Of a DNA stretch of 52,459 nt, positions 6,682 through 18,095 are shown in pieces. A program made the translations under genes and the position numbers. Position 1 is the first letter of the stretch. Every line of letters begins with the position of its first letter. The DNA is from a virus. Under the pieces are notes generated by a model, which saw nothing but the letters and a program-made list of their open reading frames with translations, was not told where the DNA came from and did no database searches. The stretch lies in the UHGV virus genome UHGV-0060500. One strand, given 5' to 3'.

Positions 6682-7818
6682 TTAGGATATAGCACAACGG
6701 AAAAACTTGCACCCCAAATAATCTTCAATGCGTTTTTGTCTTATCGCATCGCTTTTTACTTGCCGTTTGTGATGTGACTCATCAATTTCTACAGCAACGT
6801 TATTCACAGGATCGTAGCCATCAATAAAATACTTATTGCCAGCAACATCAACAGGATATTGCCTTATTAATTTAACTCCTTTTAGTTTTTCATACATAGT
6901 TAAGCCAGCATGTTCATAACGCTTCCTAATCATATTTTTACAATTATCTCTCATTTCTGATAATTTCGAGTCGTACTCCTTTTTTATTTCTTCAATTACA
7001 TTTTTATCGCTTTTTAATTCAATAAAGTTTTCTATGTCGTTATAATTCCCGCATTCAAAATTATTATTAAGACCTTTATTTTCACCCCATGCATGATACT
7101 TTTCTGCTATCTTATCGCTAATATATCTTTCATACCCATAATTTGTTTTAACTATAAAATATTCAATATTTAAATCAATGGTAAACTCATCATTATTGAG
7201 GTGTTCAGTTAAAAACGCATCTGGATCTGCAATATCGCTTGAATGGAACAACCTTACCCATAGCTTTTCTATTGATACTCCGCGAGTGACGAACAACCAT
7301 TTTTTGTACTTTTCAGCATCTTCTTTTGACACATACACAGAACATCGCCCAGGAGTATCACTCGTTTCAACATAATTGTTACACCATAAAATATAATTAT
7401 AAGCATAAGGACTATCTTTTTTGGTGTTATTTGAATATGTATTAAAGATATCTTGCAAGTCAACTAATCCACAAGATTCAATAACTGGCTTAACCCATTT
7501 TTCATTATATTCATAATGTCTATATTTACCAGGTGTAACGAATCTAATAAACGTTATGGGTGTGATATACACATCATCACCATCAACAATAAAATCCTTG
7601 TATTCCTCAAATCCGTAAAGATCAGAGTATTTAACAAATGATTTAAGTCTATCAATTTCAAGTTCAGAAACCAGATTATTAACAGACAGTAATTGCGTGT
7701 CCTTACAATTGAGTTTCATATGATAAGTAGCAATCACATATACCTCCTTTATTAATTTTCTATATAACGCCTCAGACGCGCTACAACGCAAAAATCCCAC
7801 CGCGTAACCCGTTTGCAC
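6682..7818 (-). CDS. AT-rich moron protein with C-terminal PD-(D/E)xK (DUF559/Vsr-like) nuclease-like domain; true start probably 7720-7745
   Basis: Markedly lower GC than neighbours; C-terminus YPVDVAGNKYFIDGYDPVNNVAVEIDESHHKRQ...RQKRIEDYLGCKFFR fits the restriction-endonuclease-like fold pattern; strong SD AAGGAGG near 7750. Confidence 0.55.
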   Translation of the reverse strand: MQTGYAVGFLRCSASEALYRKLIKEVYVIATYHMKLNCKDTQLLSVNNLVSELEIDRLKSFVKYSDLYGFEEYKDFIVDGDDVYITPITFIRFVTPGKYRHYEYNEKWVKPVIESCGLVDLQDIFNTYSNNTKKDSPYAYNYILWCNNYVETSDTPGRCSVYVSKEDAEKYKKWLFVTRGVSIEKLWVRLFHSSDIADPDAFLTEHLNNDEFTIDLNIEYFIVKTNYGYERYISDKIAEKYHAWGENKGLNNNFECGNYNDIENFIELKSDKNVIEEIKKEYDSKLSEMRDNCKNMIRKRYEHAGLTMYEKLKGVKLIRQYPVDVAGNKYFIDGYDPVNNVAVEIDESHHKRQVKSDAIRQKRIEDYLGCKFFRCAIS

Positions 7819-7890
7819 AGGTTGCAGTGTCTTATTGCGCCAGAGACGCTATCAGGTGGCTAATTTTCGGTTTACAGACTGGTAGGTAGG

Positions 7891-7992
7891 TTATGGATTA
7901 ACGAGAAGGTACAAACCGCCGAACAAAACGACGTTAACATCTATTGCCGCAGCTATGGCGAAAGCCAGGGCGAAAACGTGTTTACTATCCAT
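7891..7992 (-). CDS. Tiny hydrophobic peptide (33 aa, MDSKHVFALAFAIAAAIDVNVVLFGGLYLLVNP)
   Basis: ATG preceded by GAGAGGA; single predicted TM helix; between the O-like gene and the AT-rich moron. Confidence 0.3.
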   Translation of the reverse strand: MDSKHVFALAFAIAAAIDVNVVLFGGLYLLVNP

Positions 7993-8125
7993 TTTAAAAT
8001 CCTCTCTGTAACGCTCTCTAACGAGCTAATCGCAAAAAGGTAAGCAAGTGTAGCACCACATGCGATTTAGCTCGCTGGTGAGGTTGTTTTGTGGGTAATT
8101 TTGGATTTTTGCGGATCGTGGTTGG

Positions 8126-15787: not shown

Positions 15788-16327
15788 ATGAAAAATGATT
15801 ACGGCGGCAGCCATACGCCGAAAGAAATAAAGGACTTATGGCAAACGCCAAAACCCGTTTTTAGAGGAATGGATCGTGAATTCGAATTCGTCGCGGACGT
15901 GGCGGCAAACAAGGCAAACGCATTAATCCCGCGATATATAACCGAAGAAATGGACACGCTGCATTATCCGTGGGGAGCGGTGGCAATGCCTGGTGAGTAT
16001 GTCTGGCTTAATCCGCCATATTCGAATCCGGGGCCATTCGTTGATAAGGCAGCGATGGAACATCACCGAAATCATATTGGCTGTGTAATGTTGTTGCCCG
16101 CTGATATCTCTGTTGGCTGGTTTATGAACGGCGTGGAGACGGCAAACGAATGCCGATTAATCACGCGCGGGCGGCTGGCGTTTATCAATGCTGCGACAGG
16201 GAAACCAGCAAGCGGAAACAATAAGGGTAGCTTGTTTTTGATCTGGCATCCACGGTGCAGACATGAATGTATTTTCACGCAGATAACACGTAAAGAGCTA
16301 TATGCAAGAGGTGCAGAAAATGAGTAA
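15788..16327 (+). CDS. dam: Phage DNA N6-adenine methyltransferase (Dam-like)
   Basis: 179 aa; catalytic NPPY motif (VWLNPPYSNPG) and overall pattern of the phage N-6-adenine methyltransferase family. Confidence 0.75.
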   Translation: MKNDYGGSHTPKEIKDLWQTPKPVFRGMDREFEFVADVAANKANALIPRYITEEMDTLHYPWGAVAMPGEYVWLNPPYSNPGPFVDKAAMEHHRNHIGCVMLLPADISVGWFMNGVETANECRLITRGRLAFINAATGKPASGNNKGSLFLIWHPRCRHECIFTQITRKELYARGAENE

Positions 16328-16832
16328 AGCGGCTGAATTGCTAAGACTTGCGGCTGAAACTATTGAGGCAAGAGGGGAACAAAACGGATACGATCGAAAA
16401 GAAGAAAAATCAGCGCCAAAAGTAGCGGCTATTTTCAACGCTAAGATGAATGCAAATTTAACCCCGCTTGATGTATGGGATCTACTAATTTGTCTCAAGG
16501 AAGCGCGTTTAGGGGCTATTTTAAGCAATGGTAGCGACCCGCTCGATACTCTTATAGACCTTATTGCTTATAACGCGCTAAAAGCGGAGCAAATATTAAC
16601 GGAGCGGGAGGAAGAGCAAAAGAAAAAACAGGGCGTTTTTGATCTCCCTATCGGTGGATTGAAGAAAACTTTTGCTGACCTTGCCGGACCAGAACCATCT
16701 ATTGTACCGGGGACAATCCCACCTGTGATGTTTAACGGTGGTGAGATTACTAATCGGCTTGATGTGAAGTTTGACAACGAATCGCTATTACGCGCGGCGG
16801 GGTATCATAAAAATGGAAAGGGTGACAATTGA
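16320..16832 (+). CDS. Hypothetical protein (about 170 aa)
   Basis: ORF between the two methyltransferase genes; SD GAGGTG before the ATG at 16320. Confidence 0.4.
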   Translation: MSKAAELLRLAAETIEARGEQNGYDRKEEKSAPKVAAIFNAKMNANLTPLDVWDLLICLKEARLGAILSNGSDPLDTLIDLIAYNALKAEQILTEREEEQKKKQGVFDLPIGGLKKTFADLAGPEPSIVPGTIPPVMFNGGEITNRLDVKFDNESLLRAAGYHKNGKGDN

Positions 16833-17316
16833 TAGGTTATTAGCCTGCGTTTATGTCGCCGTTTTTGTGATCATCAATCTTATTGTTAATCATTGCGGCC
16901 CGTGGGTAATTCCGATCACCACGGTAGCCGCCGTGTGTGTCAATATGATGATCCGTGACCTCCTGTTATATGACGGCGGCCTGAAATGGTCGGCTACAAC
17001 ATGCGCCGCCGCTGGCGCAATCACGGTGCTGATAAATTACGACGCCGGGATGGTGGCGATCGCGTCATTCGTCGCGGTTGTTTCCGGTGCGCTTATTTCT
17101 GGCGGCGTTTACCGGGTTTTGCCTGGTGGCTTTGATTCTAAACGTTGGCCTGCAAATATAGCGTCCGCCATTGGTGATGCGTTAATTTTTCCTACGCTAT
17201 CGTTTATGGCGTTTATGCCGGAAATATCAGCTATGCAATTCATCTCAAAAATGGCAGCGGTAACGGTGATTACTATCATCATGCGACGCTACTTCACGTT
17301 TGAGGGTAGAAAATGA
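16771..17316 (+). CDS. Multi-pass membrane protein, tentatively VUT/YhhQ-like (queuosine-precursor transporter family); start possibly 16813
   Basis: 4-5 predicted TM helices; loose resemblance to YhhQ segments (PANIASAIGDALIFPTLSFMAF versus YhhQ PTASTLFGNVSDTLAFFFIAF as recalled); assignment is tentative. Confidence 0.35.
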   Translation: MTTNRYYARRGIIKMERVTIDRLLACVYVAVFVIINLIVNHCGPWVIPITTVAAVCVNMMIRDLLLYDGGLKWSATTCAAAGAITVLINYDAGMVAIASFVAVVSGALISGGVYRVLPGGFDSKRWPANIASAIGDALIFPTLSFMAFMPEISAMQFISKMAAVTVITIIMRRYFTFEGRK

Positions 17317-18095
17317 GCAGGGCTAAACATTGGTTAAATAATTGGCTTAGAAGTTGGGTGGTGTGGTCGCTGTACGACGGCAGCGGGTACGCCGTTAAAG
17401 ATTGGGCGGAAGCAGGATATAAGTGCTATTGCTTCAACTATGACGGCGCAAATCACGGCGATTATGAAGGCGTTAAAATCATTCATCCAAATATTGAATA
17501 CGTTAACGTATGGATTGACAACCATTTCCTGGTAATGTTCTCCCCTGAATTGTCTGTTTATCCAGAGCCTGACATTATCTTGGGCTTTCCTCCGTGTGAT
17601 GATCTTGCCGTGTCCGGCGCTCGTTGGTTCGCTGACAAGCGGAAGAAAGATCCTCACTTCCAGCAAAAAGCAGCGTACAACGCAAAGTTAGTAGAAACGC
17701 TGGCGAGTATGTATAACGTCCCGTGGATGGTGGAAAATCCGGTGGGCGCACTGTCAACGCTATGGCGTAAACCGGATTTTATCTTCAATCCGTGCGCTTA
17801 CGGTGGCTACCTGCCGGAAGATGACAAACATCCTGCTTTCCCGGATGTTTACCCGCCGCGCGACGCGTATACGAAGAAAACTTGTATTTGGTGCGGCAAC
17901 GGATTTAAGCAGCCTCTTTTTAGGCCTGTAGATCTTAACTCTGGTGATAACCCTGGGTGGGCGAAAACCGGAGGCAGGACGAAACGAACAAAGATGATCC
18001 GCTCACTAACACCGCGTGGCTTTGCCCGTGCTGTATTCCTGGCTAACGACCGGGCCATCACGCGGACTACGCTTAACCGCGTTTTACCGGACTAA
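17313..18095 (+). CDS. DNA cytosine-5 methyltransferase-like protein (short)
   Basis: 260 aa; motif I-like LYDGSGY, motif IV-like GFPPCDDLAVSG (PC catalytic dipeptide), motif VI-like VENPVG. Confidence 0.55.
   Translation: MSRAKHWLNNWLRSWVVWSLYDGSGYAVKDWAEAGYKCYCFNYDGANHGDYEGVKIIHPNIEYVNVWIDNHFLVMFSPELSVYPEPDIILGFPPCDDLAVSGARWFADKRKKDPHFQQKAAYNAKLVETLASMYNVPWMVENPVGALSTLWRKPDFIFNPCAYGGYLPEDDKHPAFPDVYPPRDAYTKKTCIWCGNGFKQPLFRPVDLNSGDNPGWAKTGGRTKRTKMIRSLTPRGFARAVFLANDRAITRTTLNRVLPD

What the first reader, a model, noticed from the sequence alone, without database searches (positions are those of the whole stretch)
15788..18095. DNA-modification mini-cluster: Dam-like N6-adenine methylase, membrane protein (tentatively VUT/YhhQ-like) and a short C5-cytosine methylase-like protein
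Two orphan methyltransferase-type genes flank an unknown gene and a multi-pass membrane protein that loosely resembles the queuosine-precursor transporter family. Orphan methylases in phages usually serve anti-restriction; a transporter-like protein in the same cluster is less expected and might indicate import of a base precursor. No transglycosylase (DpdA-like) gene is evident, so a full 7-deazaguanine pathway is not supported here.
Basis: partly seen in the sequence, partly recalled or inferred. Interest (0 to 1): 0.5.

Follow-up and report, generated by a model that had tools for sequence, protein, structure and literature searches.

The report
Phage methylases flanking orphan queuosine-precursor transporter
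A temperate gut coliphage carries a tightly packed four-gene block: two stand-alone DNA methylases, an unknown protein, and a miniature relative of the bacterial queuosine-precursor importer. In other phages that importer almost always sits beside a DNA base-swapping enzyme, which this phage lacks, so this is an ordinary DNA-protection cluster with one unexplained passenger.

Summary
All four ORFs are real. They form one overlapping, co-oriented block that is conserved in the mEp021 group of temperate coliphages and in E. coli prophages.

- **ORF1** is a phage Dam N6-adenine methylase (Pfam E 2.5e-51).
- **ORF2** is DUF6378; its function is unknown.
- **ORF3** (167 aa, six helices) is a divergent short VUT/YhhQ (QPTR) homologue. 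It falls below the Pfam cutoff, but a profile comparison with Pfam-positive relatives gives 99.9% probability, and those relatives link to E. coli YhhQ at 95%.

The new result concerns ORF3. Its viral relatives sit next to a DpdA/TGT-type guanine transglycosylase in 77-78 of 80 loci. This phage has no such gene in any reading frame, yet ORF3 is the most constrained gene of the block (dN/dS about 0.03).

DpdA is the published signature of 7-deazaguanine DNA, so I expect only m6A and m5C in the virion DNA. The transporter most likely imports a queuosine-precursor base for some other use, possibly host tRNA; that step is inferred.

This is a new member of known kinds, of modest interest.

The parts
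15788..16327 (+). Phage-type Dam DNA N6-adenine methyltransferase (179 aa). NPPY catalytic motif at residues 75-78; GGGGG Shine-Dalgarno-like motif upstream.
   Evidence: Pfam PF05869 E 2.5e-51, 174 bits. NCBIfam TIGR01712 equivalog 142 bits, cutoff 97. phrog_111 E 3e-64. PADLOC orphan MTase E 2.6e-24. dN/dS 0.06-0.08. Sequence.
16320..16832 (+). DUF6378 protein (170 aa; alternative ATG at 16302). The N-terminal ~95 aa domain is conserved and the C-terminal half is hypervariable. Function unknown. Overlaps the end of Dam by 8 nt.
   Evidence: Pfam PF19905 31.6 bits, cutoff 27.1. 238 homologues, nearly all named only 'DUF6378' in E. coli prophages. Alignment A6. No informative PDB match. dN/dS 0.19-0.52. 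Junction.
16813..17316 (+). Short six-helix inner-membrane protein (167 aa; the upstream TTG at 16771 is unlikely to be the start). A divergent member of the VUT / YhhQ (QPTR, COG1738) queuosine-precursor transporter superfamily. Here it is not accompanied by DpdA.
   Evidence: phrog_4899 'unknown' E 7e-47. Pfam Vut_1 sub-threshold, E 0.18, full length; homologue P0009 E 5e-4. 260 relatives by exhaustive hmmsearch, of which 76/80 scanned are Pfam Vut_1. hhalign 99.9%, E 6e-34 and 95%, E 4e-8 to E. coli YhhQ. AF2 model has six helices, pLDDT 67. Best BFVD hit is a 'vitamin uptake transporter'. dN/dS 0.024-0.047.
17313..18095 (+). Compact cytosine-C5 DNA methyltransferase-fold protein (260 aa). 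Motifs: I DGSG 22-25, III WID 67-69, IV FPPC 92-95 (catalytic Cys95), VI ENP 141-143, VIII WRK 151-153, IX RSLTPRGFA 230-238, X N245. Very short target-recognition region. Its start overlaps the ORF3 stop (ATGA).

Best explanation
This is a conserved, translationally coupled four-gene block in the early (nin-like) operon of an mEp021-group temperate coliphage, just upstream of NinG, RusA and the Q-like antiterminator.

Shown: (1) ORF1 is a phage Dam-family N6-adenine methyltransferase. (2) ORF4 is a minimal C5-cytosine methyltransferase-fold enzyme with a complete catalytic motif set. (3) ORF3 is a small six-helix homologue of the YhhQ/QPTR (VUT) transporters, which import queuosine-precursor bases. 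(4) The phage encodes no DpdA/TGT-type transglycosylase. (5) ORF3 is under strong purifying selection.

Inferred: during lytic growth the two orphan methylases methylate phage DNA (m6A and m5C) without a partner nuclease, which blunts host restriction. ORF3 inserts in the inner membrane and imports a 7-deazaguanine base (preQ0, preQ1 or queuine). Without DpdA that base cannot be put into DNA, so it most likely feeds the host's own Tgt/QueF/QueA/QueG pathway for queuosine in tRNA, or some other use of the 7-deazapurine pool.

The ORF3 lineage appears to descend from the DpdA-VUT gene pair common in other phages. It lost DpdA and kept the transporter. ORF2 (DUF6378) has no assignable role.
For: Gene identities. 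Operon packing with start/stop overlaps and SD-like motifs. Synteny in 7 phages and 35 E. coli genomes, and in a relative only 52-67% identical at the protein level. ORF3 dN/dS 0.024-0.047 at dS up to 0.43, the lowest of the block. ORF3 relatives (28-37% identity) sit directly beside a DpdA-like gene (phrog_887 'queuine tRNA-ribosyltransferase', E 1e-63 to 7e-69) or a TGT+DUF6884 gene in 77-78 of 80 viral loci, and also in the cultured coliphages Opt-719 and LHE71. A six-frame DpdA-profile search finds nothing in the window or its relatives (best E 2.2) while recovering 70/70 controls. Nothing of the pathway is annotated in the closest phage, and the large unknown ORFs turn out to be integrase, DnaB, exonuclease, repressor and Erf. 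Literature: DpdA is the signature of 7-deazaguanine DNA (PMC10516641); characterised QPTR/YhhQ proteins carry preQ0/preQ1 or queuine (PMC11130926); phages with pathway genes but no DpdA were proposed to boost Q in tRNA, and phage YhhQ homologues are known (PMC6884629).
Against: No transport or methylation activity was tested. ORF3 itself is below the Pfam cutoff (12.6 bits against 27.2) and is a quarter shorter than YhhQ, so its substrate could have changed. Transporter specificity is poorly predicted from sequence (PMC11130926). E. coli already makes preQ0 and has its own YhhQ, so the benefit of extra import is unclear. Deleting yhhQ in phage CAjan had no detectable effect on DNA modification (PMC7544227). 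Phage use of the Q-decoded NAU codons shows no special bias (0.54 against about 0.53 in a small host sample). The ORF3 model is only moderately confident (pLDDT 67) and the NJ tree has no support values. The target sequences of both methylases are unknown. One of the closest structural matches to ORF4 transfers carboxymethyl rather than methyl.
Confidence: 0.55

Rival explanations
1. ORF3 kept the VUT fold but changed job after losing DpdA. It may carry a different small molecule (another nucleobase or vitamin), or act as a membrane effector such as a superinfection-exclusion or host-takeover protein. In that case it has nothing to do with 7-deazaguanines.
For: The DpdA-less lineage (window, L086/P0009, P0133) forms its own subclade on long branches and is only 28-37% identical to DpdA-linked relatives. 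Three near-invariant family positions differ in ORF3 (A123, S130, A149; sequence). Pfam Vut_1 is sub-threshold. Substrate specificity varies within the family (PMC11130926). The host already has YhhQ.
Against: Most family-defining residues are retained (Y14, N22, G29, R48-D49, A82/A84/S85, N115, D122, F126-P127, F131, K146). All characterised family members carry 7-deazaguanine bases (PMC11130926). No alternative ligand is suggested by any neighbouring gene.
Confidence: 0.25
2. The phage does modify its DNA with a 7-deazaguanine. It would use bases imported by ORF3 and an unrecognised transglycosylase: a host enzyme, or a non-homologous phage protein such as the ORF2 (DUF6378) or ORF4 partner.
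For: The ORF3 clade is almost universally coupled to DpdA elsewhere. ORF3 is translationally coupled to ORF2 and ORF4, and that arrangement persists at 52% identity. New DpdA subfamilies that Pfam missed have been found before (PMC10516641).
Against: No DpdA/TGT-like sequence exists in any frame, and there are no QueC/D/E or FolE genes. ORF4 is a conventional C5-MTase fold found in more than 7700 clusters, most of them without any VUT neighbour. DUF6378 is a ~95 aa helical-looking domain, far too small for a TGT barrel. All known 7-deazaguanine phages encode DpdA (PMC10516641).
Confidence: 0.07
3. ORF3 is a decaying remnant of a former DpdA-VUT module and has no current function.
For: Its normal partner gene is missing. 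A few database entries are truncated or fused versions (P0007, P0010, P0012).
Against: dN/dS is 0.024-0.047, the strongest constraint in the block. The reading frame is intact in all seven phages and in a relative at 52% identity, with dN/dS 0.09-0.21 even at that distance.
Confidence: 0.03
4. ORF4 is not a simple m5C DNA methylase. It may transfer another group (for example carboxymethyl from carboxy-SAM), act on RNA, or be a non-catalytic DNA binder. This rival is not exclusive of the main explanation.
Against: All catalytic motifs, including the Pro-Cys nucleophile and ENP, are invariant across the family. The best matches are DNA methyltransferases with similarly small recognition domains (DNMT3A/B). 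dN/dS is 0.05-0.16.
Confidence: 0.12

Closest known systems
E. coli YhhQ / QPTR (VUT family, PF02592, COG1738), the preQ0/preQ1 importer; also phage YhhQ homologues such as that of coliphage CAjan
   Same: Homologous six-helix membrane protein (hhalign chain 99.9% then 95%). It shares the conserved R-D, A-x-A-S and D-x-x-x-F-P-x-x-x-F motifs. Phage-encoded copies are already known (PMC6884629, PMC7544227).
   Different: 167 aa against 221 aa, lacking YhhQ's loop insertions. It is below the Pfam cutoff. It is not embedded in a preQ0 synthesis/DpdA cluster. Its substrate is untested.
DpdA-VUT two-gene modules of phages (Pectobacterium phage PEAT2, Escherichia phages vB_EcoD_Opt-719 and LHE71, and many IMG/VR contigs)
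   Same: Same short-VUT clade (28-37% identity) and the same kind of genomic neighbourhood (RusA, NinB, Erf, methylases).
   Different: Those phages have a ~245 aa DpdA-like transglycosylase abutting the transporter. The window, the rest of the mEp021 group, L086 and the P0133 lineage do not.
Phage Dam family PF05869 / TIGR01712 (phage N-6-adenine-methyltransferase)
   Same: Full-length match far above both curated cutoffs, and the NPPY motif is present.
   Different: Nothing notable. Target specificity was not determined here.
Cytosine-C5 DNA methyltransferases (PF00145; M.HhaI, M.HaeIII, DNMT3A/B catalytic domains)
   Different: Much shorter (227-260 aa against 320-390 aa for bacterial enzymes) with a minimal recognition domain. 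ORF4 itself is not detected by Pfam PF00145. No partner endonuclease.
Annotated mEp021 genes mEp021_30 to mEp021_33 (MH706966.1)
   Same: Same four genes in the same order at 87% nucleotide identity. They are annotated as putative Dam, hypothetical, putative membrane protein (6 TM) and putative DNA cytosine methyltransferase.
   Different: The membrane protein had no family assignment in that record, in MagusPhagus or in RefSeq prophages.

Membership tests
Phage Dam N6-adenine methyltransferase (PF05869 / TIGR01712) | Score above the curated family cutoffs over the full length | tested here: met
   PF05869 174.1 bits (cutoff 28.1), residues 7-176 of 179. TIGR01712 142 bits (cutoff 97.05).
Phage Dam N6-adenine methyltransferase (PF05869 / TIGR01712) | (D/N)PPY catalytic motif | tested here: met
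   NPPY at residues 75-78 in the translation.
Phage Dam N6-adenine methyltransferase (PF05869 / TIGR01712) | Methylates adenine in DNA (GATC or another site) | not testable with these tools
   Needs a methylome or a restriction assay. GATC is not avoided in the genome (253 observed against 170 expected).
VUT / YhhQ / QPTR transporters (PF02592, COG1738) | Pfam Vut_1 score above the gathering cutoff | tested here: not met
   ORF3 scores 12.6 bits, E 0.18 (cutoff 27.2), although the match spans 13-157 of 167 residues and 6-149 of 152 profile positions. Homologue P0009 scores 20.8 bits.
VUT / YhhQ / QPTR transporters (PF02592, COG1738) | Demonstrable homology to bona fide members | tested here: met
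   76 of 80 proteins retrieved by the ORF3 profile are Pfam Vut_1 at E <= 1e-3 (best 2.5e-15). hhalign of the ORF3 clade against an independent alignment of them: 99.9%, E 6e-34, 156 columns. That alignment against E. coli YhhQ: 95%, E 4e-8. A direct ORF3-clade against YhhQ comparison is not significant.
VUT / YhhQ / QPTR transporters (PF02592, COG1738) | Six transmembrane helices and the conserved family residues | tested here: met
   The AF2 model has six long helices (pLDDT 67). The mEp021 record notes 6 TM by TMHMM and Phobius. 15 of 18 invariant or near-invariant family positions are retained.
VUT / YhhQ / QPTR transporters (PF02592, COG1738) | Transports preQ0, preQ1 or queuine | not testable with these tools
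   Requires complementation of a queD yhhQ E. coli mutant, or uptake assays.
Phage 7-deazaguanine DNA-modification system | DpdA-family DNA guanine transglycosylase (the published signature; PMC10516641) | tested here: not met
   A DpdA-like profile (A5) against the six-frame translation of the window and of mEp021, MagusPhagus and LSU61 loci gives a best E of 2.2, while 70/70 positive controls are found. L086-L090 are also negative. No TGT domain in the large ORFs.
Phage 7-deazaguanine DNA-modification system | [quoted passage not shown] | tested here: not met
   None is annotated in the closest phage genome or in mEp021. Pfam and PHROG scans of the window's larger unassigned ORFs found none. 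Small ORFs were not individually scanned.
Cytosine-C5 DNA methyltransferase (PF00145) | Pfam DNA_methylase score above the cutoff | tested here: not met
   ORF4 has no Pfam or NCBIfam hit. Family members P0074 and P0114 reach 24.7 and 28.5 bits (cutoff 22), but only over motifs I-IV.
Cytosine-C5 DNA methyltransferase (PF00145) | C5-MTase fold | tested here: met
Cytosine-C5 DNA methyltransferase (PF00145) | Catalytic motifs: I (SAM loop), IV Pro-Cys nucleophile, VI ENV-type Glu, VIII Arg, IX, X | tested here: met
   G23-S24-G25, P93-P94-C95, E141-N142-P143, R152, R230-S-L-T-P-R235 and N245 are invariant in 24 diverse family members. HMM alignment to DNMT3B places motifs I and IV in register. 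The assignment of motifs VI-X is by order and inspection.
Cytosine-C5 DNA methyltransferase (PF00145) | Forms 5-methylcytosine in DNA at a defined motif | not testable with these tools
   Needs a methylome of an expressing strain.
DUF6378 (PF19905) | Score above the gathering cutoff | tested here: met
   31.6 bits (cutoff 27.1), residues 13-96. The homologues carry precomputed PF19905.

The most novel reading that the evidence does not exclude
A sublineage of the phage 'DpdA + mini-VUT' module has discarded DNA base exchange and kept the transporter as a stand-alone tool for manipulating the infected cell's 7-deazapurine pool. One possible use is to interfere with host immunity that depends on 7-deazaguanine chemistry (Dpd restriction, type IV CBASS deazaguanylation, QatABCD). 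Another is to feed an as yet unrecognised modification enzyme encoded by the co-translated neighbours (DUF6378 or the mini C5-MTase).
Probability: 0.07. Interest if true: 0.8.

Novelty: new member of a known kind. Interest (0 to 1): 0.35.

Why it matters
It assigns a family to a gene that is 'hypothetical' or 'membrane protein' in every sequenced mEp021-group phage and prophage; the group is described as prevalent in the human gut. It shows that a short, phage-specific branch of the queuosine-precursor transporter family is a near-obligate partner of DpdA. That makes the branch a useful marker for finding 7-deazaguanine-modifying phages whose DpdA is annotated 'hypothetical', such as the T1-like coliphages LHE71 and Opt-719. 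It also singles out culturable K-12 phages in which the transporter is kept without DpdA. Those phages are a clean system for asking what phage-borne Q-precursor import does when it is not feeding DNA modification. The methylase part is ordinary anti-restriction biology.

Tried and rejected
- **Direct ORF3 comparison with YhhQ.** Neither sequence nor profile comparison of the ORF3 clade with E. coli YhhQ was significant (hhalign probability 0.6%). The link needed intermediate sequences.
- **Fold search for ORF3.** afdb50 was not available. PDB holds no VUT structure. BFVD gave only a weak top hit, though it agrees with the sequence evidence.
- **Is the constant ~246 aa neighbour of viral VUT genes an ORF4 relative?** No. 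The ORF4-family profile hits 0 of 70. The neighbour is DpdA-like.
- **Is DpdA hidden in the window's 'hypothetical' ORFs or another frame?** No.
- **First count of DpdA linkage.** My initial figure of 70/80 was an undercount caused by my ORF-picking rule. It was corrected with six-frame searches.
- **ORF2.** phmmer and a 13-sequence profile against PDB gave nothing interpretable. The PHROG label 'phosphofructokinase' for related families has no support here.
- **Codon-usage test of the tRNA-queuosine idea.** No signal.
- **GATC and CCWGG frequencies.** Both are over-represented rather than avoided, which says nothing about ORF4's target.
- **Terminator and promoter scan.** Nothing convincing inside the block.
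- **C-terminal extensions of ~300 aa VUT proteins.** They are unrelated to DpdA or ORF4.
- **Literature.** I found no experimental characterisation of the short C5-MTase family.
Full report
**Observation**

The window is a temperate siphophage genome of the mEp021 (mEpimmI) group. Region 15000-19500 matches Escherichia phage MagusPhagus at 91.7% identity. It matches mEp013, mEp554, mEp044, mEp010, mEp515 and mEp021 at 87-91%, and 35 E. coli chromosomes at 87-94%.

Better start choices are ATG 16320 for ORF2 and ATG 16813 for ORF3. These give the 170 aa and 167 aa products annotated or found in relatives.

The genes are packed head to tail. The ORF2 start lies 8 nt inside Dam. The ORF3 start lies 20 nt inside ORF2. 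ORF4 starts at an ATGA that overlaps the ORF3 stop. Each start has a purine-rich Shine-Dalgarno-like motif upstream.

The block sits in the early rightward operon, directly upstream of NinG, RusA and a Q-like antiterminator. The same order, Dam-DUF6378-membrane protein-ORF4-NinG-RusA-Q, is kept in a metagenomic contig (L086) whose proteins are only 52-67% identical.

**ORF1**

ORF1 is a phage Dam-family methylase. Pfam PF05869 gives E 2.5e-51 over the full length, and the NCBIfam equivalog TIGR01712 scores 142 bits against a cutoff of 97. PHROG and PADLOC both call it an orphan methyltransferase. It has an NPPY motif at residues 75-78. Pairwise dN/dS is 0.06-0.08.

**ORF2**

ORF2 passes the DUF6378 cutoff. 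Its 238 detectable homologues are almost all E. coli prophage proteins named only by that DUF. Only the first ~95 residues are conserved. The C-terminal half is variable and rich in indels, and it is absent from the 99 aa version in L086. Constraint is relaxed (dN/dS 0.19-0.52). Neither the sequence nor a profile finds an informative solved structure. I leave its function unknown.

**ORF3: family assignment**

ORF3 has no significant Pfam or NCBIfam hit and falls in a PHROG of unknown function. At a permissive threshold its only Pfam match is Vut_1, end to end, at E 0.18. Its 52%-identical homologue P0009 scores E 5e-4. Both are below the 27.2-bit cutoff.

The word-indexed search found only 12 relatives. 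An exhaustive hmmsearch with a 7-sequence profile found 260 relatives at E <= 1e-3. Of the 80 I scanned, 76 are themselves Pfam Vut_1 (best E 2.5e-15), and one carries a QueF-like domain.

An independent alignment of 41 of those proteins, excluding the ORF3 clade, matches the ORF3 clade with hhalign probability 99.9% (E 6e-34, 156 columns). That same alignment matches E. coli K-12 YhhQ at 95% (E 4e-8). The direct ORF3-to-YhhQ comparison fails.

The AlphaFold model has six long helices at modest confidence (pLDDT 67). Its best match among viral structure predictions is a 'putative vitamin uptake transporter' (probability 0.97, TM 0.52, E 0.22). No VUT structure exists in PDB. ORF3 retains 15 of the 18 invariant or near-invariant positions of the family alignment.

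I conclude that ORF3 is a divergent, shortened member of the VUT/YhhQ (QPTR) superfamily.

**ORF3: genomic context of relatives**

Scanning IMG/VR with the family alignment returned 80 loci (of at least 540 confirmed) that encode 31-37%-identical relatives.

- In 70 loci a ~246 aa gene lies on the same strand and abuts the transporter, at a median distance of -12 nt.
- That gene has no Pfam or NCBIfam hit. It matches phrog_887 'queuine tRNA-ribosyltransferase' at E 1e-63 to 7e-69, which makes it a DpdA-type transglycosylase.
- A six-frame search found the same gene in five more loci, plus one marginal case.
- In two further loci the abutting gene has a TGT domain fused to DUF6884.
- The two remaining loci have the transporter at the contig edge.

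So 77-78 of 80 loci pair this short VUT with a TGT/DpdA gene.

The pairing also holds in cultured phages. Pectobacterium phage PEAT2 and an Acinetobacter phage are annotated that way. In the T1-like coliphages vB_EcoD_Opt-719 and LHE71 the 'hypothetical' gene after the VUT gene matches my DpdA-like profile at E 7e-64 and 7.5e-63. The surrounding genes in these loci (RusA, NinB, Erf, DUF1376, helicases, C5 methylases) resemble the window's neighbourhood.

**Absence of DpdA here**

The same DpdA-like profile, run with maximum sensitivity against every stop-to-stop segment in all six frames of the window and of the mEp021, MagusPhagus and LSU61 prophage loci, gave nothing better than E 2.2. It recovered all 70 controls.

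The larger unassigned ORFs of the window are an integrase, a DnaB-type helicase, an exonuclease, a replication initiator, a CI-like repressor, Erf and a Q-like protein. No Que or FolE gene is annotated in the closest genomes.

The next-nearest ORF3 relative, P0133 (44% identity), also lacks DpdA within 14 kb and sits near an N6/N4 methylase and a D12-class Dam. P0136 (34% identity) is followed by a DpdA-like gene.

In a neighbour-joining tree without support values, the DpdA-less proteins form a subclade inside the short phage VUTs, far from E. coli YhhQ. This fits loss of DpdA in that lineage.

ORF3 is not decaying. Within the mEp021 group its dN/dS is 0.024-0.047 at dS 0.09-0.43, the lowest of the six genes compared. 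It is 0.09-0.21 against L086.

**ORF4**

ORF4 has no Pfam or NCBIfam hit but belongs to phrog_757 'DNA methyltransferase'. Its family is very large (more than 7700 clusters) and consists of 227-260 aa proteins. Two members I scanned reach PF00145 above the cutoff, but only over the N-terminal half.

In 24 diverse members the following residues are invariant: G23-S24-G25, P93-P94-C95, E141-N142-P143, R152, R230-S-L-T-P-R235 and N245. These correspond, in order, to C5-methyltransferase motifs I, IV, VI, VIII, IX and X.

The family profile's 13 weak PDB hits are all C5 DNA methyltransferases, aligned from motif I to the Pro-Cys. The AlphaFold model is confident (pLDDT 86.9, pTM 0.85).

- Foldseek: the top 50 PDB matches are all C5 DNA methyltransferases (DNMT3A/B, MET1, DNMT1; E 1e-7 to 6e-5).

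ORF4 is therefore a compact C5-MTase-fold enzyme, most likely making m5C. The transferred group and the target motif are unproven. The ORF4 family is not specifically tied to VUT genes: only 2 of the 80 viral loci have a member nearby.

**Mechanism**

Shown: the gene identities, the operon packing, the absence of DpdA and the purifying selection.

From the literature:
- DpdA is present in every phage known to carry 7-deazaguanines in its DNA and is considered the signature of that modification (PMC10516641).
- Characterised QPTR/YhhQ proteins carry preQ0/preQ1 (E. coli) or queuine (Chlamydia) (PMC11130926).
- Phage YhhQ homologues are known, and phages with pathway genes but no DpdA were proposed to raise Q in tRNA (PMC6884629).
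- Deleting yhhQ in phage CAjan did not change DNA modification (PMC7544227).

Inferred: the two methylases protect replicating phage DNA from restriction, and no 7-deazaguanine enters the DNA. The transporter imports a Q-precursor base that the host Tgt pathway can use.

The last step is weak. E. coli has its own YhhQ and synthesises preQ0 de novo (established knowledge). The phage shows no special bias in Q-decoded codons.

The alternatives are a changed substrate or role, a cryptic transglycosylase, or interplay with 7-deazapurine-dependent host defences. Such defences exist (type IV CBASS deazaguanylation and QatABCD), but nothing here links them to ORF3.

**Comparison and novelty**

Each component belongs to a known family, and the block is already present in public phage records. 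In those records ORF3 is called only a 'putative membrane protein' or 'hypothetical'.

Three things are new:
- the family assignment of ORF3;
- the near-obligate DpdA linkage of its clade;
- the recognition that the mEp021 lineage keeps the transporter without DpdA, under strong constraint.

I rate this a new member of known kinds, with modest interest. The DpdA-less transporter is the only unexplained element.

Noticed in passing
window 6682-7818 (-): A 378 aa ORF in a low-GC patch (GC 0.34 at 7001-8000). Its C-terminal ~60 residues match PADLOC 'Type II methyl-directed restriction enzyme' (E 1.5e-8), Pfam DUF559 (21.6 bits, cutoff 20.6) and, weakly, PvuRts1I-like_N. There is no PHROG hit. 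It looks like a prophage-borne modification-dependent nuclease moron.
   Followed up: partly
L092:3462-4289 (+) (phage vB_EcoD_Opt-719) and L093:3489-4316 (+) (phage LHE71): In these cultured T1-like coliphages, the genes annotated 'hypothetical protein' right after the VUT gene match the DpdA-like profile at E 7e-64 and 7.5e-63. These Drexlerviridae probably modify their DNA with a 7-deazaguanine, but their records do not say so.
   Followed up: partly
L046:163-1440 (+) and L047:40-906 (+): The gene abutting the short VUT gene encodes a TGT-like domain (PF01702, E 1e-5, just below cutoff) fused to DUF6884 (E 3e-44). This is a different transglycosylase architecture from the ~246 aa DpdA-like partner.
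   Followed up: no
proteins P0151-P0264: About 25 VUT-domain proteins of 280-340 aa carry ~130 aa C-terminal extensions that fall into three unrelated groups, one hitting DUF5020. One relative has a QueF-like domain. None resembles DpdA or ORF4.
   Followed up: partly
proteins P0007, P0010, P0012 (relatives of window 16813-18095): Some database entries are chimeras: the ORF3 N-terminus joined to the ORF4 C-terminus (P0007), and a 115 aa protein with a Dam Pfam hit plus the ORF3 C-terminal half (P0010). These suggest frameshifts or deletions within the block in some prophages or assemblies.
   Followed up: no
L093:187-920 (-) (phage LHE71): An ORF4-family gene lies about 2 kb from the VUT-DpdA pair. 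It appears split over two overlapping frames (187-627 and 498-920), which suggests a frameshift or a sequencing error.
   Followed up: no
window 16600-16832 (C-terminal half of ORF2): The second half of the DUF6378 protein is hypervariable among close relatives. There are several unrelated-looking sequence versions, truncated 135 aa forms and a 99 aa form in L086, whereas the first ~95 residues are nearly invariant.
   Followed up: partly
whole window: GATC (253 against 170 +/- 14 expected) and CCWGG (125 against 59 +/- 8 expected) are both strongly over-represented relative to dinucleotide-preserving shuffles.
   Followed up: no
L087:1-454 (+) and L087:9356-10258 (+): The DpdA-less relative P0133 sits in a phage contig that carries both a D12-class Dam and an N6/N4 methylase, with a YunG-like gene two genes upstream. 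This is a second case of a DpdA-less short VUT close to DNA methylases.
   Followed up: partly
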